In this document: positions 21,989-35,326 of the stretch, one piece after another
Position numbering within the stretch: position 1 is the stretch's first letter
Layout: each line of letters opens with the position of its first letter
Source: Candidatus Poribacteria bacterium
GTDB lineage: Bacteria > Poribacteria > WGA-4E > WGA-3G
Assembly: GCA_965116815.1 (NCBI GenBank)
Contig: OZ220722.1
Location: 671,050 to 735,049, forward strand
Length of the DNA stretch: 64,000 bases
Direction of reading: 5' to 3'
Notes under the pieces: model-generated
What the model was told of the DNA's origin: nothing
The model's database searches: none
The model's input: only the letters and a program-made list of their open reading frames with translations
Translations under genes and position numbers: made by a program

Positions 21989-22227
21989 ATTATATTTCGA
22001 TTTATGCACCATTTCTGCTCCAAAATTGCGTCTATAAATAAATCGTAAAGCGAGGATTTAAATTTAATCCTCTATCAGACTTACATTGTGGTAAACAAGT
22101 TTTTTAAGATTACGTTAAGTGTTGTATCATTCTTGAACCTAAAGAATATCCCTAAGATTGACGTAATCCCCCAAACATGTTATTATCTTTCAAGACTAAC
22201 GGATTTGAAAAAAAGGAGGACTTCACA

Positions 22228-23508
22228 ATGCCCCGTTCTTACTACACTTCTCTTGTGATTTTCGTGCTTCTGTTTACAACATCCCTCCAGAGTGTCGCGA
22301 CGACATTTTCAGGAAGGGTTGTAGACGAAGCCGGGAAACCCGTTTCTGGCATCAAGTTAGCACTTCCCGCATTCAGAGCCGCTACACCCCAAGACCAAGA
22401 TGAACCTGTGTTTATCCTTTCTCAACAGGATGAAACGAATGAGGCAGGTGAATTCCTGATTAGTGACATTGATTCCCCTTCAGTTCAATTGACACTACTT
22501 CCTGTTCATAATTCAGCGTATGAAATTCGCGTTGTCGAAATTGAGGGTGTAGCTTTCTATCCCAATGAACGCCAACGCCGTTTTGGTGGACTCACATTTG
22601 CTATTGCACCGGGAGCGGATGTTAAAGGCGTAAAGGTAATTGTCCGTCCTCGGATGCGGATTCGTGGACGCGTTCTCTCTGTAGACGGTACCCCGCTTCA
22701 AAATTTGCGGGTTGGCATCTCAATAAAAAGTCGTGATGTGGATGGCAGCGGTAGCGGTGGGAGTGCAGGCACAAGAGAGCTTGACCACGATGGTTATTTT
22801 GTGGAGTATGTGAATGACCCTGCCTATTATACTGTTTATGTTAGATATGAGGGACAGTCCGCAGAATCCGAGGAGATACTGCTTAAAGATGGTGAGCGGC
22901 ACGATGACCTCGTTTTGACCCTCGACGGTGCGCCGCCTCCCAAGCCGTTACCGGCAGTGGCTCGCATCCCTGACCCTGTGAGAGTACACTTTAAGGATGA
23001 CGAGAAGATTGCCAGGGAACGCTTTAAAGCCGCAGAGGAACGCAATCGACAAGGTGTATGGGCGATTAATCCTGAAAATCGGCATGCCTACAAAAGGATT
23101 TATTGTGAAACCCGTGAAGATGCGCGCGCCCAAGCTGCTGCCGAAGAGGCGCATCTCGTTGCCATCAACGATGAAGCGGAAGAGAAGTGGCTCCTTGAAG
23201 TTTTTGGAAAAGAATACTTTTGGATTGGACTGGCCGGTGCTTCAAAAGAGGATACTCCGCACTGGGATAACGGCGAACCGGTCACCTACACCAATTGGGC
23301 TTTTCCAGAGAAGATTGCTGCAGGTGAAAAATCGAGGCAAGATGAGGATGTCCATCGGAATTACACGCTCCTCGTAGGATTGACTGGGAAGTGGCAGGAG
23401 ACACGTCAGGATAGTTCCCTCGCACGTATAACTGGACAAGCCATTCTGGAAAAAGAGCGTTTCACCGTTGGATTACCGGAATTAGACGAGGATGTTGAAA
23501 AACGTTAA
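22228..23508 (+). CDS. Array member A1: secreted protein with two carboxypeptidase-regulatory-like beta-sandwich domains and a C-terminal C-type lectin-like domain (CTLD).
   Basis: RBS AAGGAGG. Signal peptide LVIFVLLFTTSLQSVA. SGRVVDEAGKPVSGIKL and RMRIRGRVLSVDGTPLQN are CarbopepD_reg-like. CTLD motifs HAYKRIYCETREDARAQAAAEEAHLVAINDEAEEKWL, WIGLAG, HWDNGEPVTYTNW. Confidence 0.8.
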   Translation: MPRSYYTSLVIFVLLFTTSLQSVATTFSGRVVDEAGKPVSGIKLALPAFRAATPQDQDEPVFILSQQDETNEAGEFLISDIDSPSVQLTLLPVHNSAYEIRVVEIEGVAFYPNERQRRFGGLTFAIAPGADVKGVKVIVRPRMRIRGRVLSVDGTPLQNLRVGISIKSRDVDGSGSGGSAGTRELDHDGYFVEYVNDPAYYTVYVRYEGQSAESEEILLKDGERHDDLVLTLDGAPPPKPLPAVARIPDPVRVHFKDDEKIARERFKAAEERNRQGVWAINPENRHAYKRIYCETREDARAQAAAEEAHLVAINDEAEEKWLLEVFGKEYFWIGLAGASKEDTPHWDNGEPVTYTNWAFPEKIAAGEKSRQDEDVHRNYTLLVGLTGKWQETRQDSSLARITGQAILEKERFTVGLPELDEDVEKR

Positions 23509-23536
23509 GTGCCCTAAAACGCAAGGAGGTGTTGAC

Positions 23537-24823
23537 ATGAACCGTACCTATATGACATCAAAGTTAGCCGTACTTGTATTGATGCTTTTGTCTGTTATAA
23601 CAGGTATTGCTGCAGCGGAAGAGATGCTTAGTGGATTTTCAGGGAAAGTTGTTGATTTGGAGGGGAAGGGTGTTGCTAACTTTACATTCGCCATTCAACC
23701 TATGCGATTACACAACGGCTCTCTGGTGCCAGATGATGAATTTATGCCGTGGCGAGCTGATTCAACGGGTGCTTTCACTGTCAGGGACATCCAGCTACGT
23801 CTGATTCAATTAAGCGCACTTCCCGACATCCCGCTGGATGTGTTCGATCCGGAGAAAGGGAAGATTCCGTTGGAATTTAGGTATCGCAGAATTGAGTCGG
23901 ATAAGAAAATCATCTCTATTCAAATAGGGGCGGTCACCCTCTTTAATATGGGTGATCCGGACTTTTATGAGGGACTCACGTTTGCCCTCAAACCCGGTGA
24001 GAATATTGAAAACGTTAAGGTTATTGTCAAACCGAGGCTTCGGATTCGTGGACGAGTTGTTTATGCCGATGGCGCGCCCCTCGCCAACGCCGGATTAGAT
24101 TTTGACATGGAATGGCGACATGAGACCCGTCTGAATCATAGTGGGAACAGCGGGGCACACCCTTTTACGGATGCCGATGGATACTTTGTCCAATATGTAG
24201 ATAAACCGGGGTTTTACACACTGTCCGTGGAACATAATGATCTTTCTGCAGGCGCAGGTCCCTTTCTGATCAAAGATGATGTGCAACCTGAGGAAATTGT
24301 CTTTACACTTGAAGGTAAGCCGGATGTTGTCGAACTGCCTCCCCCGAAGATTAAAGCCTCCGGTAAAATAAAATTCCAAGAACCATCCACGCCACCAGCG
24401 AAAGGTGTGTGGGTAATTAATCCTGCGAATGGACACGCTTACAAAAGGATTCAGTGTGAGGATTGGCACGATGCCCAGCGCAAGGCAGTTGAGGAAAGGG
24501 CTCACCTTGTCTCAATCAACGATGAATCGGAACAACACTGGGTTCAGGTAATTTTCGGAGGGGACCCTTTTTGGATCGGACTTACGGATGCGAAAAAAGA
24601 GGGTGAGTGGCAATGGGATAGCGGTGAACCCGTCACTTACACTAATTGGGTGGTCCATCCGATCCTCCGTGATAAATCTCCGGACACCGAGAAAGACTAT
24701 GTTGTGTTCACCTTTATCAGAGGAGAGTGGCAAGCTATCAGTCTCAAGAGCCTGTTATGGGCGGAAATCGCAAAACAGGCAGTCATCGAAAAGGACGGAT
24801 TGGTTTCTACTATCGATGAGTAG
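23537..24823 (+). CDS. Array member A2: same architecture (signal peptide, 2x CarbopepD_reg-like, CTLD).
   Basis: RBS AAGGAGG. FSGKVVDLEGKGVANF, LRIRGRVVYADGAPLAN. CTLD HAYKRIQCEDWHDAQRKAVEERAHLVSINDESEQHW, WIGLTDAKKEGEWQWDSGEPVTYTNW. Confidence 0.8.
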   Translation: MNRTYMTSKLAVLVLMLLSVITGIAAAEEMLSGFSGKVVDLEGKGVANFTFAIQPMRLHNGSLVPDDEFMPWRADSTGAFTVRDIQLRLIQLSALPDIPLDVFDPEKGKIPLEFRYRRIESDKKIISIQIGAVTLFNMGDPDFYEGLTFALKPGENIENVKVIVKPRLRIRGRVVYADGAPLANAGLDFDMEWRHETRLNHSGNSGAHPFTDADGYFVQYVDKPGFYTLSVEHNDLSAGAGPFLIKDDVQPEEIVFTLEGKPDVVELPPPKIKASGKIKFQEPSTPPAKGVWVINPANGHAYKRIQCEDWHDAQRKAVEERAHLVSINDESEQHWVQVIFGGDPFWIGLTDAKKEGEWQWDSGEPVTYTNWVVHPILRDKSPDTEKDYVVFTFIRGEWQAISLKSLLWAEIAKQAVIEKDGLVSTIDE

Positions 24824-24898
24824 GGCCTAATACTGTAGAAAAAGGCGACCTTGTCTTGTAAGCGCGTATAGTGAGCTCAAACCAGAGGGGATAGAAAA

Positions 24899-26158
24899 AT
24901 GACACGTCTGTATTTCGGAAAGAGAATTCTCACATTTTTTATCGGAATTGTCGCACTTTTCCTTTTAAGTGCGTCGGAGAGCGGCGCACAGAACGATGTG
25001 TTGACCACACTCTCCGGTCGCGTTATTGATGCAGCTGGACAGCCAATTGCCGGACTTACGGTAGCTATTGTTCCTGTCCAAGACGGTCATGGCGCATGGT
25101 TTCCAATTGAGTTTGAGGTCGAAGAAGGTGGACGGCAAGGCGATCCGATGGCGTTCCAAGGGGAAACCGATGCAGCAGGACGTTTCGTCATTACCGATGC
25201 CATTGTTGGTCCCGTGTTGTTAGGGTTGTTTCCGTATAATGGGCCGGAGATGGAAATTTTGAATGTCCAAATCGGCGATATGTTTCTCTATGCGCCTAAA
25301 GAATCGTGGGGACGTGGCGTTATATTTTCTGTGGAGCCGGGTAAGCGCATTGAAGACCTTGAGGTCACAGTGCAGCCTTTTCTACAACTCCGGGCGAAAG
25401 TTCTAAGGATGGACGGGAGTCCACTCGCCAATGCACAACGTATCAGGGTCGGGTTAAGGCGACTCAGTTTAGATGGAGAATACGATGGTAGTGGGAGATG
25501 GAACGCGGAGACGGATGACGAAGGAAACTTTGCACGATATATGACAAGATATATGAATGGTCCCATATTTTACTTCATGTCTGTGACATATCAGGAGCAT
25601 CAAGCGCAGTTAGATCCAATTGTGGTCAAACCCGAAGATCTAATTCAGGAGGTGGTCTTCACTTTCGAGGTCCCACTGCCCCCTGATATACCCCAGAACG
25701 CTCCTCGCGGTTTTCATGCTGGCGCGCCAGCGCGATTTGGTGGCGGGCTTAACGCGAAAGGTGTATGGGTTATCAATCCAGCAAATGGTCACGCCTACAA
25801 AAAAATCCGTTTTAACGGCGTGGAAGATGCTATTGCGCAAGCAGCCAAGGAAGATGCTTATCTCGTCACGATTAACGATGAAGCGGAACAAAACTGGTTG
25901 GATCAAGTTTTTGTTGCACATCGCGCTTTAATTGGGCTTAGTGATGTTGAAGAAGAGGGGCAGTGGCAATGGCATAGTGGGGAACCCGTCACATATACAA
26001 ATTGGGCAATGTATGAACCACAGGATACCGACAAAGGCGATGAAGATTATGTCATCCTGTTCGCCGACCAGTGGGTGGACGTTGGTCCCGGAGATGTCCA
26101 ATGGCGTTTTATTCAGTCCGCACTCCTTGAAAAAGAAGAAGCGTCTCTAAAGAAGTAA
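24899..26158 (+). CDS. Array member A3: same architecture.
   Basis: Signal peptide ending SGAQ. LSGRVIDAAGQPIAGLTV. CTLD HAYKKIRFNGVEDAIAQAAKEDAYLVTINDEAEQNWL...LIGLSDVEEEGQWQWHSGEPVTYTNW. Confidence 0.8.
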   Translation: MTRLYFGKRILTFFIGIVALFLLSASESGAQNDVLTTLSGRVIDAAGQPIAGLTVAIVPVQDGHGAWFPIEFEVEEGGRQGDPMAFQGETDAAGRFVITDAIVGPVLLGLFPYNGPEMEILNVQIGDMFLYAPKESWGRGVIFSVEPGKRIEDLEVTVQPFLQLRAKVLRMDGSPLANAQRIRVGLRRLSLDGEYDGSGRWNAETDDEGNFARYMTRYMNGPIFYFMSVTYQEHQAQLDPIVVKPEDLIQEVVFTFEVPLPPDIPQNAPRGFHAGAPARFGGGLNAKGVWVINPANGHAYKKIRFNGVEDAIAQAAKEDAYLVTINDEAEQNWLDQVFVAHRALIGLSDVEEEGQWQWHSGEPVTYTNWAMYEPQDTDKGDEDYVILFADQWVDVGPGDVQWRFIQSALLEKEEASLKK

Positions 26159-26176
26159 ACCCTAAAGGAGAAAACC

Positions 26177-27607
26177 ATGAAATGTTCGGAGTCTAAAAGG
26201 CACGTTTTGTTATTTTTGATGGTGATAGTCGCACTTTTTATCGGTTTCATTTCGCACGCTGTTGCGCAGAAAGATACGGGGAGCGTTACCGGACGCGTTG
26301 TCGATCTGAGTGGAAACCCAGTTGTCGAGTTACCGATATTTATTGCTCCTCTTTATGTTGATGGCACTGGATACATGCGGACAGTAATTTTACCGTATGA
26401 GCACGCACAGTTGCGCCGTGCACGCACAGACCGAGAAGGTCGATTTTCCGTAACGGATGTCCCCTCGGGTCCTGTGTACATCGGTGCCCTTCCGGACGAC
26501 ATAGATAAACGCCTGCCTGAAGACTTTGAAAGGGTTGTAGATGAGTTCACATCCGGCAGAGATTGGGGGAAGACCACAGCAGACGAGATAGAGGCATTCG
26601 ATTCCAGTAACTTCGGCATGACTTCAGAGGATTTTGAGCCAGACGTTGAAATTTTGTTCATTCGCGTCCAAGGATTAACCCTATACCCGCGTACCGATTT
26701 TGTTGAAATCGCGTTCGGTCTCAAATCCGGCGCGCTTATGAAGGATATGGAAGTCACAGTGCAACCTCGGATGCGAGTTCGCGGACGCGTCCTTTTCAAA
26801 GACGGAACACCACTTGCCAATACACGCGTCGGCCTCTACACTCATGCTCGTACTGTAAGTGGCGGCTCCATCGGCTCCGGTGGAAATTTATGGACGGACA
26901 CTGACGGCTATTTTGTTTATTATATAGATGAGAAGGATGATGCTGCGTTCTACACGTTTTCTGTGGAATACCAAGATCTTGTGGTAGAGGCTGAGCCGAT
27001 TCGCCTTGATCCAGGAGACCGGTTCGATGGGTTGACATTGACGTTTGATAGCGAACCGATTCCACCCAACCAACTGCCTCAAAAAATCGAAACTGACGAG
27101 TTGGAACCGCTTTCACCCGCATGGGAAGTCCCGTCAGTACCAACAGCATCTCATGACGTGTGGGTCGTCAATCCCGAAAATGGACACGCCTATAAAAGGG
27201 TTCACTGCGAAACTCGCGATGATGCGATTGCCCAGGCAACCGAAGAGAAGGCGCATCTCGTCGCGATTAATGACGCTGCGGAGCAGGCATGGTTGGAAGC
27301 GGTTTTTGGACACAAGTTCTATTGGATCGGACTCAGCCGCGTTCCTACAACAGGGACACTTTCTAAGCGAGCAAAAAAATGGTGGCAATGGGATAACGGC
27401 GATCCTATCACCTATGCCAACTGGTTACCCAATGAGTTCTTTTCTGAATCCTTGGATGCCAGTGAAAGAGACTATGCCGTCATGACGCTCTCTGATGGAA
27501 AGTGGTATGCGGTGAATCCCGACAGTGTTATCTGGGATATGACGGAGATGGCGATCCTTGAAAAAGCAGATGTACTTGACAATCCATCCGCTGCAGAAAG
27601 ACGATGA
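26177..27607 (+). CDS. Array member A4: same architecture, with a longer linker.
   Basis: RBS AAAGGAG. VTGRVVDLSGNPV, RMRVRGRVLFKDGTPLANTRV. CTLD HAYKRVHCETRDDAIAQATEEKAHLVAINDAAEQAWL...WIGLSRV...WWQWDNGDPITYANW. Confidence 0.8.
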   Translation: MKCSESKRHVLLFLMVIVALFIGFISHAVAQKDTGSVTGRVVDLSGNPVVELPIFIAPLYVDGTGYMRTVILPYEHAQLRRARTDREGRFSVTDVPSGPVYIGALPDDIDKRLPEDFERVVDEFTSGRDWGKTTADEIEAFDSSNFGMTSEDFEPDVEILFIRVQGLTLYPRTDFVEIAFGLKSGALMKDMEVTVQPRMRVRGRVLFKDGTPLANTRVGLYTHARTVSGGSIGSGGNLWTDTDGYFVYYIDEKDDAAFYTFSVEYQDLVVEAEPIRLDPGDRFDGLTLTFDSEPIPPNQLPQKIETDELEPLSPAWEVPSVPTASHDVWVVNPENGHAYKRVHCETRDDAIAQATEEKAHLVAINDAAEQAWLEAVFGHKFYWIGLSRVPTTGTLSKRAKKWWQWDNGDPITYANWLPNEFFSESLDASERDYAVMTLSDGKWYAVNPDSVIWDMTEMAILEKADVLDNPSAAERR

Positions 27608-27723
27608 ACACGACACATAACACCTTATTGCTTTTTTTATATCAACACCCTCGTATTTTTGGCAAAATTATGCACCAGTTTTACACCTCATAAGCGTCAC
27701 TATAGGGCAATCGGAGGTAATTC

Positions 27724-29775
27724 ATGAAAAACATCGATGTTGAACTCATTCACCGTGTGCTTGATGGCGATGATACCGCTTTCACTGAACTTGTGAAAAA
27801 ATACCAAAAGCCCGTTCACACGCTGGTGTGGCGTAAAATTGGAGATTTCCACATCGCCGAGGAAATTACGCAGGATACATTCTTAAAGGCGTATCAGGAA
27901 TTGGCAAAGCTGAAAAAACCACAGAGTTTTGCGAGTTGGCTTTATGTGATCGCTGCGAACCACTGCAGTACATGGCTGCGTAAAAAGCGTTTACAGACGC
28001 AGTCGCTTGAGGAAACGAGCAGTGCTCGATTAGAAAAGGCGACATATTCGGGGTATGTTGTTGAAGAAAATGAGCGGACAGCAGTGGAAGCACAACGCGA
28101 AGTCGTGAAAAAATTGCTTGCGAAACTCCAAGAGAGTGAACGCACAGTGCTCACACTGCATTACTTCGGTGAGATGTCCAGTACAGAGATTGGCGCGTTT
28201 TTAGGTGTGTCAGCAAATACGATTCGGAGTCGTCTCCGTCGTGCGCAGCAGCGTTTAAGGAAAGATGAACCGATGATTCGAGAAGCCTTGGCCAATTTTC
28301 AAATCACGCCGCATCTCACAGAAAATATCATGCGTGAGATTGCGCGTATGAAACCCGCTGCGCCGTCTGGCAGTAAACCGCTGGTGCCGTGGGCAATTAC
28401 GACGATTTCTACAGTAGCGGTGGTGCTTTTGATGTTAGGCGTTGGAAGCCATCAATACTTATCACGTGTCCAAAAGCCGTATAGTTTCGACGCAATGTCA
28501 GAGATGAGGGTTGAACTAATTGAGGCACCTGTTGTGCTAAATCTTGAGTCCAAACCGGGTGTTCAGACTCAACTTGGCGACAACGATGCAACCGGTAGAG
28601 ACAATAAGACGCATCAGAACTCTGATGCGACGCTATTTTCCTCCACCTCCGGTCACATCCTTAATGAAGCAGGCGAACCGGTTTCTGGGATCAAGATAGC
28701 GATTACACCTGTCGTAGATGGTAAAGGGGCTTGGTTTCCGATTCATGTGCAAGAGCGTGCTCTTGAAGATACGCGTGAACGCCACGTGGAGAGCGATGCA
28801 GAGGGGCGTTTTACTATCACCGGTGACATCTCCGGTCCTGTGTTGTTGTCGCTATTTCCGCTTCGCAGCTCGTCAGTCCGTATTTTAAGGGTTCAAATCG
28901 GCGGATTATTTTTCTATCCAAGCGGAATGATGGAGCGTGGAATTGTATTTGCCCCACCCCCGGGTGAATCCATTGCGAATATTGAAGTTACGGTACAGAG
29001 TCCGCACATCCGAGGGAGAGTACAACGCATAGATGGGAGACCAATCGCCAATGCAAAAATCAAACGCCGGTTGCGGACAGTAAGTCAGCACGGTGAGTCT
29101 TCTGGTTCTGGCAGTGTTCATACGGACGCTGAAGGATACTTTTCACACTATGTGGACAAGGATATAGAGCAACCAACATTTTACATGTTTTCTCTGACCT
29201 ATCAGGGGCAGACCGTCAATGCAGACCCGATTGTGCTTAAACCCGGGGATCCAACACACGACATCGTTTTTACCTTTGATAGTTTACCGGAAAAGCCTTT
29301 ACAAGCGCGGCGTGGAGTTTTCGCGAGCGCGTCCGCTTCAGTGGGTTATCGTGCACAAAATGTATGGGTGATAAAACCGGACTTTCCCCTACAAACTGGC
29401 GGGCATGCTTACAAGAAAATTAAGTGTGAGAATCGGGAAGATGCGAGAGCCCAAGCCGCCGCCGAAGGGGCGTATCTCGTCACAATTAACGACGAGGCAG
29501 AGCAGAAGTGGTTGCAAGCTGTCTTTGGAAATCAACCGATTTGGATTGGACTTAACGATGTTGCAACAGAAGGAGAATGGCAATGGGACAACGGCGAACC
29601 GCTTACCTATACCAACTGGGAATTTCAGGAACCCCATGACCCGAACAATGAGGCTGAGGATTATGTCATCCTTAATCCTTTAGGGAAATGGGAGGACAGT
29701 AACGCCAGAAATCCAAAATGGGGCTGGATTCGGACAGCACTCATTGAGAAGGAAACGTTACCCGTGAAGAAGTAG
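27724..29775 (+). CDS. Array member A5: ECF sigma-70 factor (regions 2 and 4) fused through one TM helix to an extracytoplasmic module of 2x CarbopepD_reg-like domains plus a CTLD (683 aa).
   Basis: RBS GGAGG. Sigma region 2 is DDTAFTELVKKYQKPVHTLVWRKIGDFHIAEEITQDTFLKAYQEL...WLYVIAANHCSTWLRKKR. Region 4 is SSTEIGAFLGVSANTIRSRLRRAQQRLRK. The TM helix is LVPWAITTISTVAVVLLMLGVG. After it come SGHILNEAGEPVSGIKI, and the CTLD HAYKKIKCENREDARAQAAAEGAYLVTINDEAEQKWL...WIGLNDVATEGEWQWDNGEPLTYTNW. Confidence 0.8.
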   Translation: MKNIDVELIHRVLDGDDTAFTELVKKYQKPVHTLVWRKIGDFHIAEEITQDTFLKAYQELAKLKKPQSFASWLYVIAANHCSTWLRKKRLQTQSLEETSSARLEKATYSGYVVEENERTAVEAQREVVKKLLAKLQESERTVLTLHYFGEMSSTEIGAFLGVSANTIRSRLRRAQQRLRKDEPMIREALANFQITPHLTENIMREIARMKPAAPSGSKPLVPWAITTISTVAVVLLMLGVGSHQYLSRVQKPYSFDAMSEMRVELIEAPVVLNLESKPGVQTQLGDNDATGRDNKTHQNSDATLFSSTSGHILNEAGEPVSGIKIAITPVVDGKGAWFPIHVQERALEDTRERHVESDAEGRFTITGDISGPVLLSLFPLRSSSVRILRVQIGGLFFYPSGMMERGIVFAPPPGESIANIEVTVQSPHIRGRVQRIDGRPIANAKIKRRLRTVSQHGESSGSGSVHTDAEGYFSHYVDKDIEQPTFYMFSLTYQGQTVNADPIVLKPGDPTHDIVFTFDSLPEKPLQARRGVFASASASVGYRAQNVWVIKPDFPLQTGGHAYKKIKCENREDARAQAAAEGAYLVTINDEAEQKWLQAVFGNQPIWIGLNDVATEGEWQWDNGEPLTYTNWEFQEPHDPNNEAEDYVILNPLGKWEDSNARNPKWGWIRTALIEKETLPVKK

Positions 29776-29806: not shown

Positions 29807-31138
29807 GTGAAATGTTTGAAATCCTGTAACAAAGTTTTTGCATTGTTCATAATAATTGGTTCGCTTTTCATTGAGTTTGCCTCACACAGCATTGCTGACG
29901 AGAAAACAGGAACTTTCTCAGGACGTGTTGTTGATGTGGAAGGAAATCCTGTTGCGAAATTGCCAGTTATGATTGTACCTGCTATGGTTATGGGGTACGG
30001 AATTCACACATTGTTTCCAAGGCAGTATTCTACTGTGCGACGCACACTGACAGATGCGGACGGGCGATTTTTCATTACGGATATTGCGCCGGGAATTTCC
30101 TATTTTGGTGTACTTCCTTACGATGTAGAGGAGATGGAGGATGATGATTTTGACCCCGATATTGAGGTTTTATCTCTCCGCATCCAAGGGATAACGTTCT
30201 ATCCGCGTACCGATTACGAACAGATTGGGTTTAGTGTCAAACCGGGAACCCATATTGAGAATGTAGAGGTCACAGTTCAACCTCGGATGCGAATTCGGGG
30301 ACGCATCGTTTTCAAAGATGGAACACCGCTTGCGAGTGCACGGTTCAACCTCCGCTTCCATTCTAAGACTGTGGATGGGACAGGCAACCGGCAGTCCGGA
30401 GGCAGACCGCGAACAGATACTGATGGCTATTTTGTCTATTATCTGGATGAGAAAGATGATCCTGCATTCTACACATTTTCTGTGGAATATCGAAATCTTA
30501 CCGCAAAGGCTGGACCGATCCGCATTAATCCAGGGGAGCGTCTTGACGGATTGACGTTGAAATTCGATAGTGAACCGATTTCCCCACAACCATCGTCTCA
30601 TACTGTTCCACAACCATTATCTCAGACAAAGACACTTGATCGTCCATCTGCTGCTACGCCACCGCCGAGAAAATCAATGCCGGTCTCTGAAGAGGTGTGG
30701 ATAGCCAATCCCGCGAATTTGCATGCCTACAAAAGAATTCATTGTGAGACCCGCGAAGATGCTGTTGCCCAAGCAAGGGAAGAAAATGCGCATCTTGTCA
30801 CTATTAACGACGCTGCTGAGGAAGCGTGGTTGGTAGAGGTTTTTGAGCGTAACCTCTACTGGATCGGACTCAGCCGCGTCCCACCGATAGGCACGGATTC
30901 TAACACAACGCAATGGCGATGGGAGAATGGTGAACCTATCACCTATGCGAACTGGTTACCCGATTATATCTTTGGTGAGTCTTTGGATGTCAGTAAGAGG
31001 GTCTATGCTGTTATGATGACGTTCACCGATGGAAAATGGTATGCCGTTGGTCCTGACAGTCTCGTTTGGCGTATGACGGAGATGGCGATCCTCGAAAAAG
31101 CATACCTGCTTGATAATCCGTCCGCTGCAGAGAAATGA
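29807..31138 (+). CDS. Array member A6: same architecture (GTG start).
   Basis: RBS AAAGGAGAG before GTG. FSGRVVDVEGNPVAKLPV, RMRIRGRIVFKDGTPLASARF. CTLD HAYKRIHCETREDAVAQAREENAHLVTINDAAEEAWL...WIGLSRV...QWRWENGEPITYANW. Closest to A4. Confidence 0.75.
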   Translation: MKCLKSCNKVFALFIIIGSLFIEFASHSIADEKTGTFSGRVVDVEGNPVAKLPVMIVPAMVMGYGIHTLFPRQYSTVRRTLTDADGRFFITDIAPGISYFGVLPYDVEEMEDDDFDPDIEVLSLRIQGITFYPRTDYEQIGFSVKPGTHIENVEVTVQPRMRIRGRIVFKDGTPLASARFNLRFHSKTVDGTGNRQSGGRPRTDTDGYFVYYLDEKDDPAFYTFSVEYRNLTAKAGPIRINPGERLDGLTLKFDSEPISPQPSSHTVPQPLSQTKTLDRPSAATPPPRKSMPVSEEVWIANPANLHAYKRIHCETREDAVAQAREENAHLVTINDAAEEAWLVEVFERNLYWIGLSRVPPIGTDSNTTQWRWENGEPITYANWLPDYIFGESLDVSKRVYAVMMTFTDGKWYAVGPDSLVWRMTEMAILEKAYLLDNPSAAEK

Positions 31139-31234
31139 TAGTTGTAAAAGATGTTCCTGTTCATATATGAATATATCTTGTAGGGGCAGCCCTTGTGGCT
31201 GCCCGCTGTTCCTGTTCTAAAAGGAGAATTTATA

Positions 31235-32467
31235 ATGAATCTGCAAAGTTTCAAACAAAATTTTGGATTACTTTTGTTGGTGATGCTACTCTCCCTTCTG
31301 GTATCGTCGTCTGTTGTTGCCCAACAAGGTGCGACGATTTCTGGGCGCGTCGTTGATGAGCTGGGGAATCCGGTTGTCGGTACTTCGGTAGCACTCCATC
31401 GGTATAAAGCCATAGATGGTGATCAGAGAGGACGATTTGTGCCTTTCTGGCAAAAGCCGGTCGATTTAGATGGTCATTTTTCCTTCGTAAATATTGCGCC
31501 AACGGAGTCCGTTAGTTTTATCGTAGAAGATGAACGGACTAAAGGAAAAATCCTTTCTATCCAAATGGGTGAGCTCACCCTTTATCCGGGGGACCATCCA
31601 CATTTTGGTAAAGTAAGATTTTCCTTGGAAGCAGGGATGGAAATCGAAGACGTTGTCATCACGGTGAACACAAATATTCCGCCACAAGTCCGCGCGCGAG
31701 TCGTCTCTGCTGACGGTACACCGCTTGTCAACACAACTATATATGTTGCAGTGCAACGTAAAAGTCTGGATGGAACGGGCTCTGGCGGTTCTGGTGGCAC
31801 AAGACAGACCGATGCAGAAGGATATTTCGTAGAAGACCTGCAGGTGGACGATAATCCCAGATTCTATGTGCTTGGTGTTAAATATCAGGGGCTTTTTGCG
31901 AAAGCACCTCCTTTCATTTTACATGAAGGGCAACCGCAAGTTCATCTCCTTTTGACACTCAAAGGTAATCCAGATCCGCTTGCACGACCACCAGTACGTC
32001 CGCTGGTAGGTCCACCGTCCGCTGCATTAACGACGTTTCTTGATCCACCAACGGTGTGGATTGTGAACCCCGCGAATGGACACGCTTACAAAAAGATTCA
32101 TTGTGACGGTGTAACGGATGCGACGACCCAAGCCGCTGCAGAAAATGCGTATCTCGTTGCCATCAATGATGAAGCAGAAAATGAATGGTTGGAGGAAATC
32201 TTTGGGCGAGAACGTTTTTGGATTGGACTCAACGATGCCGCCGAAGAAGGACAGTTGGCTTGGGATAGCGGTGAACCTGTTACCTATACGAACTGGGGTG
32301 AACATGAACGAGCAGGTAACAACACTGAGGTGAATGACTACGTTATCTGGGGATTTGGCGGTAGATGGGAGATGGTCGCACTTGGAAGTGGGCATGCACA
32401 TTTTGTCAAAACAGCAATTCTCGAAACGACAGATGTCCCTGTTGAAACATCACCTGAGAATAATTAG
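31235..32467 (+). CDS. Array member A7: same architecture.
   Basis: RBS AAAAGGAGA. ISGRVVDELGNPVVGTSV. CTLD HAYKKIHCDGVTDATTQAAAENAYLVAINDEAENEWL...WIGLNDAAEEGQLAWDSGEPVTYTNW. Confidence 0.8.
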   Translation: MNLQSFKQNFGLLLLVMLLSLLVSSSVVAQQGATISGRVVDELGNPVVGTSVALHRYKAIDGDQRGRFVPFWQKPVDLDGHFSFVNIAPTESVSFIVEDERTKGKILSIQMGELTLYPGDHPHFGKVRFSLEAGMEIEDVVITVNTNIPPQVRARVVSADGTPLVNTTIYVAVQRKSLDGTGSGGSGGTRQTDAEGYFVEDLQVDDNPRFYVLGVKYQGLFAKAPPFILHEGQPQVHLLLTLKGNPDPLARPPVRPLVGPPSAALTTFLDPPTVWIVNPANGHAYKKIHCDGVTDATTQAAAENAYLVAINDEAENEWLEEIFGRERFWIGLNDAAEEGQLAWDSGEPVTYTNWGEHERAGNNTEVNDYVIWGFGGRWEMVALGSGHAHFVKTAILETTDVPVETSPENN

Positions 32468-32540
32468 CGACAACCCAACATTGGGTTTGCTTCCAGTTCG
32501 CCCCAATCTACATTTGTCTATTCTATAAGGAGAACTTACA

Positions 32541-33878
32541 ATGAATCGCTTAAGTTTCACACGTATTGCATACCTTTTCGGAGTTGTAATTGTACTCTCT
32601 CTCATTGCATCCGTTCCTTGTATCGCACAGGACGAGACAACACTCTCTGGTACCGTCCTTGATACAGAGGGGAAACCGATTGCTGGATTTGCCATTGGTC
32701 TTTTACAAGGTTCTCTCATATCGAAGACTGATGAAGAAGGGGCTTTCACCTTTACCAATATCCCTGCCGGACCGGTTCAAATTGCGATTCCAGCGCAGCC
32801 GTCCAAAGAAAATGAGAAGCCTGTATTCAACTTTGAGGCAGATGATGAGATCGTTTCAATCAAAATCAAGGGTGTAACGCTTTATCAGGACATGCGTCCG
32901 CCTTTCGGCGGTATCACATTCGGGGTCAAATCGGGCAGTCATATTGAAGACATAACGGTTACCGTACGTCCACGGATGCGAATTCGGGCGAGAGTCGTTT
33001 TCAAAGATGGGAAACCGCTAACGAATACTTCTGTTGCCACGCGAGTCGAAGGCGGTGGTGGTACGTCGACTGGAGGGGCTACTACGGACTCTGAAGGATA
33101 TTTTGTGCATTATATGGATAACGACGATGTTCCGGCACACTACACGGTCACCGTAAAATATAAAGGGCTCTCGGCGAAATCAGAGCAATTTTTGCTTGAA
33201 AAGGGTGCGCGCTATGATGATTTAGTCTTGACGCTTGATGGCGATGTACCGCCTGCTGCGCCACAAACGGAATCTCTGCCGAAAGTTTTGGATAAATTGA
33301 CTGGTGGATCGACACCATCTGAGAAACCGACACTCACCGAAACAAACCGCTCTGTACCGACTAACAAGGGACAAGTTAATATTCGAGAGGTGGAAGTAAA
33401 GCCTCGTGGAACAGATACTAAACCTGCTAACTCCGTTAGGCAGATGCGACCGCCGTGGGAGAAAGATGCGTGGGCTGTGAACCCGGCGAATGGACACGCC
33501 TATAAAAAGATTCGGTGCGACAGTCTGGATGAGGCACGAGATCAAGCCGCTGCGCAAGGTGCACACCTCGTCGCGATTAACGACGCAGCGGAGCAGGAAT
33601 GGATTTCGGGACTCTTTGGCAATCATCTCTATTGGATTGGACTCAGTGATGCTGAAAACGAAGGGGAATGGGCATGGCAGAACGGTGAGCCTCTCACCTA
33701 TACGAATTGGGGACCCAAGCACAGTTTCCCGCGGAGTCCACTTTCACCGGAAAAGAAGGACAGTGTTGTTATGACGTTTGCGAATGGACAGTGGCATGCC
33801 GTTGGTCCCGGTGACCTTTTTTGGCATAAGACGAAGATGGCAATCCTTGAAAAAGCAAACGTGCTTGATGGGAAATGA
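32541..33878 (+). CDS. Array member A8: same architecture.
   Basis: RBS AAGGAG. LSGTVLDTEGKPIAGFAI, RMRIRARVVFKDGKPLTNTSV. CTLD HAYKKIRCDSLDEARDQAAAQGAHLVAINDAAEQEWI...WIGLSDAENEGEWAWQNGEPLTYTNW. Confidence 0.8.
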   Translation: MNRLSFTRIAYLFGVVIVLSLIASVPCIAQDETTLSGTVLDTEGKPIAGFAIGLLQGSLISKTDEEGAFTFTNIPAGPVQIAIPAQPSKENEKPVFNFEADDEIVSIKIKGVTLYQDMRPPFGGITFGVKSGSHIEDITVTVRPRMRIRARVVFKDGKPLTNTSVATRVEGGGGTSTGGATTDSEGYFVHYMDNDDVPAHYTVTVKYKGLSAKSEQFLLEKGARYDDLVLTLDGDVPPAAPQTESLPKVLDKLTGGSTPSEKPTLTETNRSVPTNKGQVNIREVEVKPRGTDTKPANSVRQMRPPWEKDAWAVNPANGHAYKKIRCDSLDEARDQAAAQGAHLVAINDAAEQEWISGLFGNHLYWIGLSDAENEGEWAWQNGEPLTYTNWGPKHSFPRSPLSPEKKDSVVMTFANGQWHAVGPGDLFWHKTKMAILEKANVLDGK

Positions 33879-33934
33879 TATTTCTCGGACTCCGGTTTAT
33901 TTGGCATCTCAATATTGAAAAAAGGAGAATCTAC

Positions 33935-35326
33935 ATGAATCTTCAGCGTCTCGGTCTAAAACTTTGTATCCTCGTCGGGATTGTAGCGTTTTTCTTTACT
34001 ATTGCTGCTGACGTGCAGGCAGATCGCCCACAAATTCACGCGCGGGTCGTCCATGCTGACGGGACACCGCTTGTGAACGCGGATATATATGTTGCGGTGC
34101 TACGCAAAAGCTTGGATGCAGGCGGCTCCGGAGGTACAGGAAGTACAATGCAGACCGATGCCGCGGGATACTTTGTGGAAACTCTTAACGTAGGTAATAG
34201 CCCAAAATTCTATGTGGTTGGTGTTGCGTATCAGCGGCATCTCGCGAAAGCACCCCCTTTTATTTTGCAGGAGGGACAACCGGAAGTTCATCTACTCTTG
34301 ACACTTGATGAGAATCACGTTCCGCCAGATAGATGGGGATTTGATCAAGTACATACTACATTAAAAGCATTTCTTGAACCCCCAACGGCGTGGGTAGTGA
34401 ATCCTATAAATGGGCACGCTTACAAAAGGATTTATTGTCACGATGTAATGGATGCGATGACCCAGGCTATTACAGAAGGTGCTTATCTTGTTTCCATTAA
34501 CGATGAAGCAGAGGAGATATGGATACAAGGAGTCTTTGAACCAGATAGTTTTTGGATCGGACTCAGCGATGTCACTAAGGAGGGGCAGTGGGTCTGGCAC
34601 AGTGGTGAACCGGTTACGTATACCAACTGGGGAGAGAATAAACAAAACGGTGGTAACACCGAGGCGAACGATTACGTTATCTCTGATTTTGGTGCCGAAT
34701 GGTTGTCGGTTGCGCCGGGAGATGCCCCTTTTGTCGAAGAGGCAATCCTCGAAAAAGCGGAGTTACCCGTTAAGACGCAATCTGATAAACAAACCGATGT
34801 CCAGCCAACTGGTGTCTCAATACCACCGAATAAAACTATCGCCACTCAAGCCAGTCGTTCTGTCCCACCTCAGAAAATAAAGTCCCTTTTAGAGATAGGT
34901 GTATGGGCTGTGAACCCCGCAAATGGACACGCGTACATAAAGATTTGGTGCGAAAGTCTGGACGATGCGAGAGATAGTGCCGCTGCCCAAGGGGCACACC
35001 TCGTCGCTATTAACGATGTAGCGGAACAGCAGTGGCTTTTAGGGCTCTTTGGGAATCACCTCTATTGGATTGGACTCAGTGATGCAAAAAAAGAGGGTGA
35101 ATGGGTATGGCAGAACGGTGAACCACTTACTTATGAAAATTGGGGATCCAAGTATAAATTTCCGCGTAGTGCTCTCTCACCGGAAGAGAAAGACAGTGCT
35201 GTTATGACGTTTGCGAATGGACAGTGGCATGCCGTCGGTCCCGGTGATCTGCTCTGGAATACGACTCGACAGGCAATCCTTGAAAAAACAGACGTGTTTG
35301 ACAGTCCTCCTGTCAAAGAAAAATAA
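33935..35326 (+). CDS. Array member A9: chimeric paralog. It has a signal peptide, only the second beta-sandwich domain, and then two CTLDs in tandem.
   Basis: RBS AAAAGGAGA. N-terminal half RPQIHARVVHADGTPLVNADIYVAV...FILQEGQPEVHLLLTL is ~80% identical to the A7 interior. CTLD-1 is HAYKRIYCHDVMDAMTQAITEGAYLVSINDEAEEIWI...WIGLSDVTKEGQWVWHSGEPVTYTNW. CTLD-2 is HAYIKIWCESLDDARDSAAAQGAHLVAINDVAEQQWL...WIGLSDAKKEGEWVWQNGEPLTYENW, about 85% nt identity to the A8 CTLD. Confidence 0.75.
   Translation: MNLQRLGLKLCILVGIVAFFFTIAADVQADRPQIHARVVHADGTPLVNADIYVAVLRKSLDAGGSGGTGSTMQTDAAGYFVETLNVGNSPKFYVVGVAYQRHLAKAPPFILQEGQPEVHLLLTLDENHVPPDRWGFDQVHTTLKAFLEPPTAWVVNPINGHAYKRIYCHDVMDAMTQAITEGAYLVSINDEAEEIWIQGVFEPDSFWIGLSDVTKEGQWVWHSGEPVTYTNWGENKQNGGNTEANDYVISDFGAEWLSVAPGDAPFVEEAILEKAELPVKTQSDKQTDVQPTGVSIPPNKTIATQASRSVPPQKIKSLLEIGVWAVNPANGHAYIKIWCESLDDARDSAAAQGAHLVAINDVAEQQWLLGLFGNHLYWIGLSDAKKEGEWVWQNGEPLTYENWGSKYKFPRSALSPEEKDSAVMTFANGQWHAVGPGDLLWNTTRQAILEKTDVFDSPPVKEK

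What the first reader, a model, noticed from the sequence alone, without database searches (positions are those of the whole stretch)
27724..29775. Single-polypeptide membrane-spanning ECF sigma factor with an extracytoplasmic lectin sensor, embedded in the array
Array member A5 starts with clear sigma-70 region 2 and region 4 sequence. It then has one TM helix, followed by the same 2x CarbopepD_reg plus CTLD module as its neighbours. Its sensor part is most similar to A3. This topology (cytoplasmic sigma, TM helix, periplasmic carbohydrate-binding domain) would allow ligand binding outside the cell to be coupled directly to sigma release. It resembles a one-component version of the ECF/anti-sigma/TonB-receptor circuits of polysaccharide utilisation loci. 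The fusion to a CTLD specifically, and its placement as the fifth gene of an 11-gene array, look novel.
Basis: partly seen in the sequence, partly recalled or inferred. Interest (0 to 1): 0.85.

Follow-up and report, generated by a model that had tools for sequence, protein, structure and literature searches.

The report
Membrane-anchored sigma factor with lectin-fold sensor
This is a real, conserved gene of a Poribacteria genome. It joins an ECF sigma factor, through one membrane helix, to an outward-facing C-type-lectin-fold domain, and it belongs to a large, apparently undescribed poribacterial family that re-uses the same sigma-membrane module with many different outside domains, so it is a new variant of the known one-polypeptide sigma/anti-sigma design and not a new kind of system.

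Summary
ORF 27724-29775 (+), 683 aa, reads ECF sigma (sigma2 23-89, sigma4 127-180), one hydrophobic helix (about 219-242), two CarboxypepD_reg-like beta-domains and a C-type lectin-like domain (CTLD). It is not an assembly artefact: 77 of the 120 listed database representatives (94% down to 44% identity) cover at least 99% of the query.

1. Residues 1-290 (sigma, linker, TM, a 45-aa outside segment) form a constant module. It recurs in at least 569 poribacterial genomic stretches, fused to WD40, BNR/sortilin, LRR, LamG, TPR-protease or CTLD domains.
2. Almost every member is preceded by an ECF-type promoter motif (ATGCACC-17 nt-GCGTC). Its -35 and -10 variants covary with the sigma4 and sigma2 sequences.
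3. In the window this motif occurs only twice, before A5 and before A1.

Orthologous loci always place the sigma-CTLD gene directly before secreted CTLD paralogues, usually as first gene.

The most likely mechanism is a membrane-sequestered, autoregulated sigma released by regulated proteolysis. This step is inferred, not shown.

The architecture class is already known (IutY; ECF52 SCO4117; WD40-type ECF57). The canonical sugar-binding motif is not intact, so "lectin" is unproven.

Verdict: new variant of a known kind, moderately interesting.

The parts
27663..27705 (+). ECF-type promoter motif upstream of A5: CAAAATTATGCACCAGTTTTACACCTCATAAGCGTCACTATAG. The -35-like ATGCACC lies at 27670-27676 and the -10-like GCGTC at 27694-27698, 17 nt apart. 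It ends 18 nt before the ATG.
   Evidence: A PWM built from 50 paralogue upstream regions, without the window, scores 55.3 bits here. The null maximum was 3.7 in 30 Markov shuffles. The sequence was read.
27713..27717 (+). Ribosome-binding site GGAGG, 6 nt before the ATG.
   Evidence: Sequence read. ATCGGAGGTG is conserved upstream of paralogues.
27724..29775 (+). A5 gene: a membrane-anchored ECF sigma factor with CarboxypepD_reg-like domains and a CTLD ectodomain (683 aa).
27790..27990 (+). Sigma-70 region 2 (aa 23-89). Residues 82-83 (ST here) covary with the -10 variant.
   Evidence: Pfam; covariation.
28102..28263 (+). Sigma-70 region 4 (aa 127-180). Residues 172-175 (RRAQ here) covary with the -35 variant.
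   Evidence: Pfam; covariation.
28264..28377 (+). Conserved cytoplasmic linker (aa 181-218, MIREALxNFQITPxLTENIMREIxRxKP). It is too short for a full anti-sigma domain and may be a remnant of one.
   Evidence: Conservation. No Pfam hit even at E<=10. Weak NCBIfam NF052375 'antisigma' hit, E 0.0019 here and E<=0.01 in 18 of 60 members, far below the cut-off.
28378..28449 (+). The single transmembrane helix (aa about 219-242). P222, W223, S229 and G239 are invariant in both alignments; T230 is invariant among the orthologues.
   Evidence: Hydropathy; invariant columns.
28450..28593 (+). Conserved extracytoplasmic juxtamembrane segment (aa 243-290, QxLxRFQKPYSFDAxSEMTVELIEAPVVLNLESKPDVRxQLG). All family members share it whatever their sensor. 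It is a candidate processing or partner-binding site.
   Evidence: 73-member alignment. AF2 predicts no fold, pLDDT about 25. The aa 181-300 module was found in only 242 of 1.84e9 representatives, listed matches mostly starting near residue 181; fragments aside.
28639..28998 (+). First CarboxypepD_reg-like beta-sandwich (aa about 306-425).
   Evidence: Pfam; AF2 all-beta with pLDDT about 80-90.
29008..29277 (+). Second beta-sandwich (aa about 429-518; DUF6795 / DUF4198-like).
   Evidence: Pfam; AF2.
29359..29754 (+). C-type lectin-like domain (aa about 546-677). The motif reads EPH..ED..WED, and there is one non-conserved Cys.
   Evidence: Pfam 54.2 bits. PDB sequence hits to DEC-205, PLA2R and mannose receptor. 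Foldseek hits to CD23, SRCL and ASGR1 with target-normalised TM 0.75-0.83.
21997..22039 (+). Second promoter motif of the same class (ATGCACC-17 nt-GCGTC), in the 500-bp intergenic region upstream of A1.
   Evidence: PWM 17.2 bits (core 14.8) against a null maximum of 3.7. It is the only other hit in the 64 kb. An orthologous site lies before the first CTLD gene in L001 (18.0 bits).
22177..27607 (+). A1-A4: four secreted paralogues (signal peptide, CarboxypepD_reg-like x2, CTLD). ORFs are 22177-23508, 23492-24823, 24899-26158 and 26177-27607. This is the inferred first transcription unit.
29807..37262 (+). A6-A11: six further paralogues downstream of A5 on the same strand. A6-A8 have the full module, A9 has two CTLDs, and A10 and A11 are lipoproteins without a CTLD. 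No own promoter motif and no convincing terminators were found, so co-transcription with A5 is inferred.

Best explanation
A5 encodes an N-in/C-out, single-pass membrane-anchored ECF sigma factor of a Poribacteria bacterium.

It is the CTLD-bearing orthologue group of a large poribacterial family. In this family a constant module of about 290 aa is joined to interchangeable ectodomains. The module consists of the ECF sigma domain, a 38-aa cytoplasmic linker, one TM helix and a 45-aa conserved outside segment. The ectodomains include WD40, BNR/sortilin, LRR, LamG, TPR-protease and CarboxypepD_reg+CTLD.

The gene carries its own cognate ECF-type promoter (ATGCACC-17 nt-GCGTC). A promoter of the same class precedes A1. 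The sigma factor therefore most likely autoregulates and drives the array of secreted CTLD paralogues, which are copies of its own ectodomain.

Inferred mechanism:
1. The sigma domain is held at the membrane and is inactive or poorly active.
2. An event at the ectodomain (ligand or target binding by the CTLD/beta-sandwich module) exposes the shared juxtamembrane segment to a site-1 cleavage.
3. A site-2 intramembrane protease then cuts the TM helix, which carries helix-destabilising residues (invariant P222, S229, G239; T230 among orthologues).
4. The freed sigma binds core RNA polymerase and transcribes its own gene and the CTLD array.

What is shown: the architecture, the family, the synteny, the promoter motif and its covariation with the sigma sequence. 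What is inferred: the topology, sequestration, proteolytic release, and the nature of the ligand.
For: Architecture and reality of the fusion.

Topology: the ectodomain is homologous to neighbours that start with signal peptides or lipoboxes. The sigma domain must be cytoplasmic to act.

Constant module:
- A 73-member alignment is conserved up to about aa 288 and variable after that.
- Paralogues are 67-80% identical over aa 1-300 only.
- The aa 181-300 module occurs in only 242 of 1.84e9 representatives, in the listed matches mostly at residues about 181-295 (fragments and a few others aside).
- The ectodomain repertoire is shown.

Promoter:
- The motif lies upstream of 51 of 72 non-redundant members.
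- 96 PWM hits in 1.39 Mb are all on the gene strand. 52 lie before the reference genes, and most of the rest lie before further tandem family genes or secreted-protein genes.
- The -35 variant GCACC pairs with sigma4 '..AQ' in 39 of 40 cases, against 0 of 23 for other variants.
- The -10 variant GCATC pairs with sigma2 'KM' in 10 of 10 cases, against 0 of 53. The KM/GCATC pairing occurs in two different sigma4/-35 backgrounds.

Link to the array:
- The window has only two sites, before A5 and before A1.
- L001 has the same arrangement.
- In all 13 orthologous loci examined, the sigma-CTLD gene is directly followed on the same strand by secreted CarboxypepD_reg+CTLD paralogues. L007 holds two such modules.

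No separate anti-sigma gene recurs next to family members.

Precedent for release by proteolysis: IutY is trimmed to about 50 periplasmic residues by Prc and then cut by RseP (PMC5411451). RsgI paralogues combine a constant juxtamembrane domain with variable sensors and are cut by RseP (PMC10328401).
Against: - No tool result shows cleavage, release or ligand binding.
- No full anti-sigma domain lies between sigma4 and the TM helix: only 38 aa, no Pfam hit, and only weak NF052375 hits. How the tethered sigma is kept inactive is therefore unexplained.
- AF2 gave low confidence for the N-terminal module (pLDDT 48-61), so docking of the linker on sigma could not be assessed.
- The juxtamembrane segment has no RsgI-type Asn-Pro and no FecR-type domain.
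- Charge bias across the TM helix is weak: 4 K/R inside against 3 outside.
- Many paralogues share the same sigma2/sigma4 determinants and the same promoter class. The A1 and A5 promoters could therefore be served by other family members (cross-talk).
- The covariation counts are not phylogenetically independent.
- No S2P/RseP gene was identified. A Peptidase_M50B-like gene lies 12 kb away, but nothing links it to the array.
Confidence: 0.6

Rival explanations
1. The sigma factor works while still tethered, like ToxR, CadC or TcpP. It recruits RNA polymerase to membrane-proximal DNA. The ectodomain modulates activity through oligomerisation or conformation, not through proteolytic release.
For: No full anti-sigma domain is present. 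The 38-aa linker is strongly conserved, as expected if its length and geometry matter. No adjacent protease gene recurs.
Against: All experimentally studied TM-fused ECFs are reported or proposed to need proteolysis (IutY, PMC5411451; SCO4117, PMC8999054). A sigma factor must travel with core polymerase through promoter escape, which is hard with a 38-aa tether. Helix-destabilising TM residues and a shared unstructured outside segment fit a protease substrate better.
Confidence: 0.15
2. The motif-bearing promoters of A1 and A5 are mainly served by other members of the sigma family, which share the same sigma2/sigma4 determinants. A5 would then be a regulated product of the network, for example a surface CTLD protein with a regulatory tail, and not the dedicated regulator of the array.
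For: 37 of 63 scored members share the ATGCACC/RRAQ class, and most share GCGTC. Several such paralogues occur per chromosome. So promoter specificity cannot be private to A5.
Against: The sigma-CTLD gene is invariably linked to secreted CTLD paralogues across 44-94% identity, and the pair is duplicated as a unit in L007. This argues for a dedicated functional coupling. Distant orthologues changed promoter variant and sigma residues together, to ATGCAAC..GAGTC.
Confidence: 0.15
3. The ectodomain is not a ligand sensor. The fusion is processed constitutively, or in response to general envelope stress, and the CTLD part is then simply one more surface or secreted array protein. On this reading the fusion serves stoichiometric co-production.
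For: The ectodomain is an ordinary paralogue of the array proteins. The canonical sugar-binding motif is not intact. RsgI autocleavage is constitutive (PMC10328401).
Against: The same N-terminal module is combined with at least eight unrelated ectodomain types. That is the pattern of a sensor family, not of co-production. The ectodomain is conserved along its full length in orthologues.
Confidence: 0.08
4. The ORF is an artificial fusion of a sigma gene and a CTLD gene, produced by a sequencing or assembly error.
For: None found.
Against: 77 representatives covering at least 99% of the query, from independent assemblies, plus 9 genomic copies. The junction region is highly conserved and in frame.
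Confidence: 0.01

Closest known systems
IutY of Pseudomonas putida (ECF243), a sigma/anti-sigma fusion in cell-surface signalling (PMC5411451, PMC8999054)
   Same: One polypeptide with an N-terminal cytoplasmic ECF sigma domain, a single TM helix and a periplasmic C-terminal part. It is activated by sequential proteolysis. About 50 periplasmic residues remain as the RseP substrate, which is comparable to the 45-aa conserved outside segment here.
   Different: IutY has a FecR-type periplasmic anti-sigma domain and signals from a TonB-dependent receptor. Here there is no FecR domain and no TonB-dependent receptor nearby, and the ectodomain itself is a binding-type module (beta-sandwiches plus CTLD). 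IutY is a single case; this is a family of hundreds.
ECF52, e.g. SCO4117 of Streptomyces coelicolor (PMC5826349)
   Same: ECF sigma, TM helix and an extracytoplasmic extension ending in a (putative) carbohydrate-binding domain. It is autoregulated, and proteolytic activation is proposed.
   Different: ECF52 has a zinc-finger anti-sigma domain and a proline-rich spacer, and is reported as exclusive to Actinobacteria. Here there is no zinc finger (0 Cys and 1 His in aa 181-218) and no Pro-rich spacer. The phylum differs, the end domain is a CTLD, and the targets are paralogous secreted CTLD proteins.
ECF57 / ECF01-Gob of Planctomycetes, ECFs with WD40 C-terminal extensions in many copies per genome (PMC8999054, PMC7826278, PMC8567305)
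   Same: A lineage-specific expansion of ECFs with long C-terminal extensions. 31 of 54 poribacterial paralogues of A5 carry WD40 propellers.
   Different: A5 itself has no WD40. The two conserved cysteines described for ECF57 are not present (a single invariant Cys81). In the review, ECF57 extensions are discussed as protein-interaction modules, not as TM-separated ectodomains. Group assignment with ECF Hub HMMs could not be run.
SigI/RsgI polysaccharide sensors of Clostridium thermocellum (PMC10328401)
   Same: Several paralogues per genome. A constant juxtamembrane element is combined with variable C-terminal binding modules that resemble modules of the regulated secreted proteins. Signalling runs through proteolysis and RseP.
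   Different: That system has two proteins (SigI plus the anti-sigma RsgI). Its periplasmic domain is a folded alpha/beta/alpha domain of about 130 aa with Asn-Pro autocleavage. Here sigma is fused, and the outside constant element is only 45 aa, has no Asn-Pro, and is predicted unstructured.
Metazoan C-type lectin domains (mannose-receptor family, CD23, ASGR1, SRCL)
   Same: Sequence and predicted fold. The WIGL and WxW core motifs are present.
   Different: There are no disulfide cysteines, and the Ca2+/sugar triad is EPH/WED instead of EPN or QPD with WND. The domain is attached to a bacterial sigma factor.

Membership tests
ECF (group IV) sigma-70 family | Regions sigma2 and sigma4 only, matching the ECF profile above its cut-off | tested here: met
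   Pfam Sigma70_r2, r4, r4_2 and Sigma70_ECF, with no r3 or r1 hit. TIGR02937 scores 96.7 bits against a cut-off of 42.9. The best PDB relative is SigW 5wuq, E 1.9e-22.
ECF (group IV) sigma-70 family | Cognate bipartite promoter with an AAC-like -35 and a CGT(C)-like -10, and autoregulation | tested here: met
   ATGCACC-17 nt-GCGTC lies 18 nt upstream of the ATG. It is conserved across the family and covaries with sigma2 and sigma4. Transcription itself was not tested.
Fused sigma/anti-sigma ECFs activated by regulated intramembrane proteolysis (IutY type, ECF243) | Single polypeptide: cytoplasmic sigma, one TM helix, periplasmic C-terminal part | tested here: met
   homology of the ectodomain to secreted paralogues.
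Fused sigma/anti-sigma ECFs activated by regulated intramembrane proteolysis (IutY type, ECF243) | FecR-type anti-sigma or periplasmic domain, and a partner TonB-dependent receptor | tested here: not met
   No FecR Pfam hit on the protein. No TonB-dependent receptor among the neighbouring genes.
Fused sigma/anti-sigma ECFs activated by regulated intramembrane proteolysis (IutY type, ECF243) | Processing by site-1 (Prc-like) and site-2 (RseP) proteases | not testable with these tools
   Needs western blots or protease mutants. Only indirect hints exist: a conserved 45-aa outside segment and helix-destabilising TM residues.
ECF52 (SCO4117 type) | Zinc-finger (ZAS) anti-sigma domain between sigma4 and the TM helix | tested here: not met
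   aa 181-218 contain 0 Cys and 1 His. No zf-HC2 or other Pfam hit at E<=10.
ECF52 (SCO4117 type) | [quoted passage not shown] | tested here: not met
   No Pro-rich stretch. The organism is Candidatus Poribacteria. The terminal CTLD is a possible, but unproven, carbohydrate binder.
ECF57 / ECF01-Gob | WD40 repeats in the C-terminal extension | tested here: not met
   A5 has none, but 31 of 54 paralogues with the same N-terminal module do.
ECF57 / ECF01-Gob | Two conserved cysteines linking sigma2 and sigma4 (as described in PMC8999054) | tested here: not met
   Only Cys81 is present and invariant in the sigma domain.
ECF57 / ECF01-Gob | Assignment by the ECF Hub group HMMs | not testable with these tools
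   The ECF Hub models are not available here, and the supplement of PMC7826278 is not held.
Class I anti-sigma domain | Four-helix domain of about 70-90 aa preceding the TM helix | tested here: inconclusive
   Only 38 aa are available. There is a weak recurrent match to NCBIfam NF052375 'antisigma', profile positions 42-105 of 217. E is 0.0019 here, and 18 of 60 members reach E<=0.01 (best 5.9e-5), against a cut-off of 100 bits. This may be a remnant of the last helix plus the TM helix.
C-type lectin-like domain (PF00059) | Profile match and CTLD fold | tested here: met
   54.2 bits against a cut-off of 22.6. Foldseek hits to CD23, SRCL and ASGR1 with E about 1e-8 to 1e-9 and target-normalised TM 0.75-0.83, from a region with pLDDT about 85.
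C-type lectin-like domain (PF00059) | Ca2+-dependent carbohydrate-binding signature (EPN or QPD, plus WND) and two conserved disulfides | tested here: not met
   A5 reads EPH...ED...WED. The third residue varies among orthologues (EPD, QPD, EPG, EPQ). Most array paralogues lack the motif. The domain has one non-conserved Cys.
SigI/RsgI-type polysaccharide sensing | Separate anti-sigma protein with a folded periplasmic domain that autocleaves at Asn-Pro | tested here: not met
   Sigma is fused. There is no Asn-Pro in aa 243-290. The segment is 45 aa and AF2 gives pLDDT about 25.

The most novel reading that the evidence does not exclude
Poribacteria have evolved a modular receptor family in which one constant transducer (sigma, TM helix, juxtamembrane segment) is plugged onto interchangeable 'eukaryote-like' ectodomains: WD40, LRR, TPR, sortilin/BNR, LamG and CTLD. 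Each receptor drives secreted paralogues of its own ectodomain from a promoter shared across the family.

If so, a sizeable share of the 'eukaryote-like proteins' long noted in sponge symbionts would be transmembrane sigma-factor sensors and their regulons, not secreted host-manipulating effectors. The juxtamembrane segment would define a new, shared activation step.
Probability: 0.35. Interest if true: 0.75.

Novelty: new variant of a known kind. Interest (0 to 1): 0.6.

Why it matters
ECF sigma factors with fused regulatory extensions are regarded as the 'one-component systems' of the sigma world, but few TM-spanning examples have been studied (IutY, SCO4117).

This locus offers a natural, highly modular series: the same sigma-TM transducer and the same promoter, combined with at least eight unrelated ectodomain types. 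This makes several things directly testable.
- How an ectodomain event is passed to a fused sigma domain that lacks a full anti-sigma domain.
- How promoter specificity is encoded. The family shows clean sigma2/-10 and sigma4/-35 covariation.

For sponge and coral symbiosis research, it reinterprets part of the abundant WD40, LRR, TPR and CTLD 'eukaryote-like' proteins of Poribacteria as signalling receptors. It also links a metazoan-type CTLD to bacterial gene regulation.

For synthetic biology, a constant transducer with swappable sensors and a compact orthogonal promoter is an attractive chassis.

Tried and rejected
1. AF2 of the full protein (mean pLDDT 61) and of aa 1-300 with 73 homologues (pLDDT 48). 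The N-terminal module was too poorly predicted to judge whether the linker helix docks on sigma2/sigma4. Only the ectodomain folds are usable.
2. Pfam search of aa 175-300 for an anti-sigma domain at E<=10 found nothing. NCBIfam gave only sub-threshold NF052375 hits. A profile search of PDB sequences gave only a spurious TM match to Notch 3.
3. A search for a conserved partner gene (protease or anti-sigma) next to family members found none recurrent. The neighbours are mostly further family members.
4. The intrinsic terminator scan inside the array gave no more sites than in shuffles (12 found, 15.6 expected), and none lies in an intergenic region.
5. ECF Hub classification was not possible: the supplement of PMC7826278 is not held and no group HMMs are available.
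6. Literature searches for Poribacteria plus sigma factor, and for sigma factor plus C-type lectin, found no description of this family.
7. The assembly-artefact hypothesis was rejected.
8. RsgI-like Asn-Pro autocleavage and FecR-like Gly-Thr autocleavage in the juxtamembrane segment were considered and rejected, because neither dipeptide is present.
9. The Peptidase_M50B gene at 42032-42739 was considered as the site-2 protease. It is syntenic in L001, but nothing else links it to the array.


Full report

Yes. An uninterrupted ORF occupies 27724-29775 on the + strand (683 aa).

Pfam finds the following:
- Sigma70_r2 (aa 23-89)
- Sigma70_r4 / r4_2 (aa 127-180)
- Sigma70_ECF (aa 7-180)
- CarboxypepD_reg (aa 309-373)
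- DUF6795 (aa 430-475)
- Lectin_C (aa 572-663)

The NCBIfam ECF superfamily model TIGR02937 scores 96.7 bits against a cut-off of 42.9. Hydropathy shows exactly one TM-grade segment, aa about 219-242.

The ectodomain (aa 245-683) is most similar to A3: 47% identity and 318 bits, against 31-37% for the other members.

Minor corrections to 'the array':
- A10 and A11 are lipoproteins that lack the CTLD.
- A9 has two CTLDs and one beta-domain.

**2. Is it an artefact?**

No.
- 77 of the 120 best cluster representatives cover at least 99% of the protein at 94-44% identity. Their precomputed Pfam domains include the sigma domains and Lectin_C. Many come from megabase contigs of independent assemblies. 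Those that carry a name are Candidatus Poribacteria.
- A scan of GTDB species genomes returned further full-length copies in named Poribacteria MAGs from sponges, corals and other sources.

**3.

Many database hits match only aa 1 to about 300, at 67-83% identity, and are 970-1150 aa long. At least 569 genomic stretches in Poribacteria encode relatives. Several lie on one chromosome, for example five on OX639973.1 and five on OZ253447.1 among the best 80. Further tandem copies lie next to them.

In a 73-member alignment, conservation runs through four parts and then collapses:
- the sigma domain
- a 38-aa cytoplasmic linker (MIREALxNFQITPNLTENIMREISRLKP)
- the TM helix
- a 45-aa extracytoplasmic segment (QYLxRFQKPYSFDAxSEMTVELIEAPVVLNLESKPDVRTQLG)

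A phmmer search with aa 181-300 alone, against 1.84 billion representatives, found only 242 proteins. In the listed matches the module mostly sits at residues about 181-295 of proteins of 400-1380 aa; the exceptions are largely fragments. So it is a specific module that typically follows a sigma domain of about 180 aa.

The C-terminal parts are unrelated to each other:
- WD40 propellers (31 of 54 genomic paralogues; 40 of 98 long representatives)
- BNR/sortilin-type propellers (36 of 98)
- LRR (7 of 98)
- CarboxypepD_reg with or without a CTLD
- Big_5
- transglutaminase-like
- trypsin-like protease plus TPR
- Laminin_G_3 / pentaxin-like

A5 is thus the CTLD-bearing orthologue group of a modular family.

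**4. A cognate promoter**

The 250 nt upstream of family genes share a bipartite motif: CAGAATTATGCACC[A/C]GTTT..CCCCTAA...GCGTCACTATAG. It is recognisable in 51 of 72 non-redundant members, and related variants occur in most of the others. Its core, ATGCA[C/A]C-17 nt-GCGTC, has the form of ECF promoters: an AAC-like -35 and a CGTC -10. That comparison rests on established knowledge of ECF promoters.

A PWM built without the window gives the following.
- It scores 55.3 bits at 27663-27705, ending 18 nt before the A5 ATG.
- It has only one other hit in 64 kb: 17.2 bits at 21997-22039, in the intergenic region before A1.
- The null maximum was 3.7 in 30 Markov shuffles.
- Across 1.39 Mb of related loci, all 96 hits above 10 bits lie on the gene strand.
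- 52 of them lie before the reference genes.
- Most of the rest lie before further tandem family genes.
- About eight lie before non-sigma secreted proteins. These include the first CTLD gene of the orthologous array in L001 and a WD40 protein in L065.

The motif variants track the protein.
- The -35 variant GCACC goes with sigma4 residues 172-175 '..AQ' in 39 of 40 cases, against 0 of 23 for other -35 variants.
- The -10 variant GCATC goes with sigma2 residues 82-83 'KM' in 10 of 10 cases, against 0 of 53.
- The KM/GCATC pair occurs in two different sigma4/-35 backgrounds.
- Conversely, members with the ATGAGAC-type -35 but 'ST' or 'KS' in sigma2 use GCGTC.

This modular sigma2/-10 and sigma4/-35 pairing is what is expected if the motif is the promoter read by these sigma factors, that is, autoregulation. 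Caveat: the sequences are related, so the Fisher values are not true probabilities.

The A1 site belongs to the same class as A5's own promoter (ATGCACC-17-GCGTC). No other array intergenic region has even a weak site, and no intrinsic terminators stand out. I therefore infer two transcription units, A1-A4 and A5-A11.

**5. Synteny**

In genomes whose orthologue is 71%, 49% and 45% identical, the sigma-CTLD gene sits between the same flanking genes. These are MR_MLE and xylose-isomerase-like TIM-barrel genes on one side and pyrB on the other. The gene is followed on the same strand by 2-5 secreted CarboxypepD_reg+CTLD paralogues. The same holds in ten more loci, and L007 carries two complete sigma-plus-paralogue modules.

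In the distant genomes the sigma gene is the first gene of the array. In L001 it is second, with the weaker promoter copy before the first gene. In the window it is fifth. 'Fifth of eleven' is therefore a local expansion, not a defining trait.

**6. The ectodomain**

AF2 gives confident all-beta domains for aa 306-520 and a confident CTLD for aa 546-677, with pLDDT about 80-90. Foldseek matches the CTLD to CD23, SRCL, ASGR1 and Endo180 carbohydrate-recognition domains, with target-normalised TM 0.75-0.83. Sequence searches hit DEC-205, PLA2R and the mannose receptor.

The functional signature is not canonical.
- A5 has EPH...ED...WED instead of EPN or QPD, E, and WND.
- The third position varies among orthologues: EPD, QPD, EPG, EPQ.
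- Most array paralogues lack the motif.
- The disulfide cysteines are absent.

The fold is certain. Carbohydrate binding is not.

**7. Mechanism**

Shown:
- the architecture
- a family-wide constant transducer
- a cognate promoter before the gene and before the array
- invariant linkage to secreted paralogues of the ectodomain
- no recurrent separate anti-sigma gene

Inferred: N-in/C-out topology. The sigma domain must be cytoplasmic, and the ectodomain is homologous to Sec or lipoprotein substrates.

The most likely mode of action is membrane sequestration relieved by regulated proteolysis, as in three precedents.
- IutY, where Prc trims the periplasmic part to about 50 residues and RseP then cuts (PMC5411451).
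- The proposal for ECF52, ECF48 and ECF53 (PMC8999054).
- RsgI, where a constant juxtamembrane element precedes variable sensors (PMC10328401).

Two features fit this model:
- The 45-aa outside segment is shared by all members whatever their sensor. It is conserved but predicted unstructured.
- The TM helix carries invariant Pro, Ser and Gly residues, plus a Thr that is invariant among the orthologues.

Two features do not fit neatly:
- There is no complete anti-sigma domain. Only 38 aa lie between sigma4 and the membrane. They give sub-threshold matches to one NCBIfam anti-sigma model, possibly a remnant.
- Two AF2 runs could not resolve whether the linker masks sigma.

A ToxR-like tethered mode, cross-regulation by paralogous sigma factors of the same promoter class, and constitutive processing remain open as rivals.

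**8. Comparison with what is known**

The design 'ECF sigma, TM helix, extracytoplasmic extension' is established:
- IutY / ECF243, studied experimentally.
- ECF52 SCO4117, with a zinc finger, a Pro-rich spacer and a carbohydrate-binding domain, in Actinobacteria only (PMC5826349).
- ECF48 and ECF53.
- The many-copy WD40-type ECF57 of Planctomycetes (PMC8999054, PMC7826278, PMC8567305).

A5 fails defining features of each:
- no FecR domain and no TonB-dependent receptor
- no zinc finger and no Pro-rich spacer
- no WD40, and only one conserved cysteine

It works like these systems but cannot be filed in any of them.

Neither the ECF reclassification paper nor the poribacterial genome paper mentions Poribacteria ECFs, lectin fusions or sigma fusions. 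The latter does note abundant WD40 'eukaryote-like' proteins. Full-text searches found nothing on this family.

**9. Verdict**

I rate it a new variant of a known kind.

The added value lies in four things:
- the family-wide constant transducer with swappable 'eukaryote-like' ectodomains
- the shared, covarying promoter
- the sensor-equals-regulon-paralogue arrangement
- a metazoan-type CTLD used in this role

Interest: 0.6.

Noticed in passing
window 48009-50020 (+): An AriA-like AAA ATPase (PADLOC AriA, E 7e-28) is followed by an AriB-like DUF4435 protein (E 1.1e-10). This is a PARIS-like anti-phage pair. It sits in the only low-GC stretch of the window (GC 0.398 against about 0.48), which suggests a horizontally acquired defence island.
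   Followed up: partly
window 42032-42739 (-): A Peptidase_M50B-like membrane metalloprotease gene lies 12 kb downstream of A5 (about 5 kb past the end of the array) and is syntenic in L001. It could be a site-2 protease candidate, but nothing links it to the sigma family.
   Followed up: partly
window 13504-21676 (-): Divergently from the array lie a 1331-aa ORF with no Pfam domain, a GH172/DUF2961 protein, two xylose-isomerase-like TIM-barrel proteins and an MR_MLE enolase-superfamily enzyme. This looks like a carbohydrate-metabolism cluster. It is syntenic with the array in L001 and L003 but not in L002.
   Followed up: partly
window 44166-45202 (+): A CHAD domain is split over two adjacent ORFs: 154 aa matching profile positions 5-128, and 190 aa matching 166-227, with the second start overlapping the first stop. 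This may be a frameshift or a genuine split gene.
   Followed up: no
window 1714-9042 (-): A giant 2442-aa ORF with LysM, Peptidase_M28 and a C-terminal FtsX-like permease domain. This is an unusual combination.
   Followed up: no
L007 7201-18761; L011, L013, L014, L018, L019, L022, L024, L032, L057, L071, L074, L076: Family members occur in same-strand tandem arrays of two to four sigma-TM-sensor genes, each with its own copy of the promoter motif. L007 has two complete sigma-CTLD-plus-paralogue modules.
   Followed up: partly
L065 8794; L027 3033 and 7797; L029 2564; L061 6623: The family promoter motif also precedes non-sigma genes for secreted proteins, for example a 324-aa WD40 protein next to a WD40-type sigma gene. 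This suggests that 'the sensor regulates paralogues of its own ectodomain' may hold beyond the CTLD group.
   Followed up: partly
window 33875-35326 (+) (A9) and 35393-37262 (+) (A10, A11): The array members are structurally heterogeneous. A9 is a 60-62% identical mosaic of A7 (N-terminal half) and A8 (second CTLD). A10 and A11 are 52% identical lipoproteins with only the two beta-domains. This indicates recent recombination and duplication within the array.
   Followed up: partly
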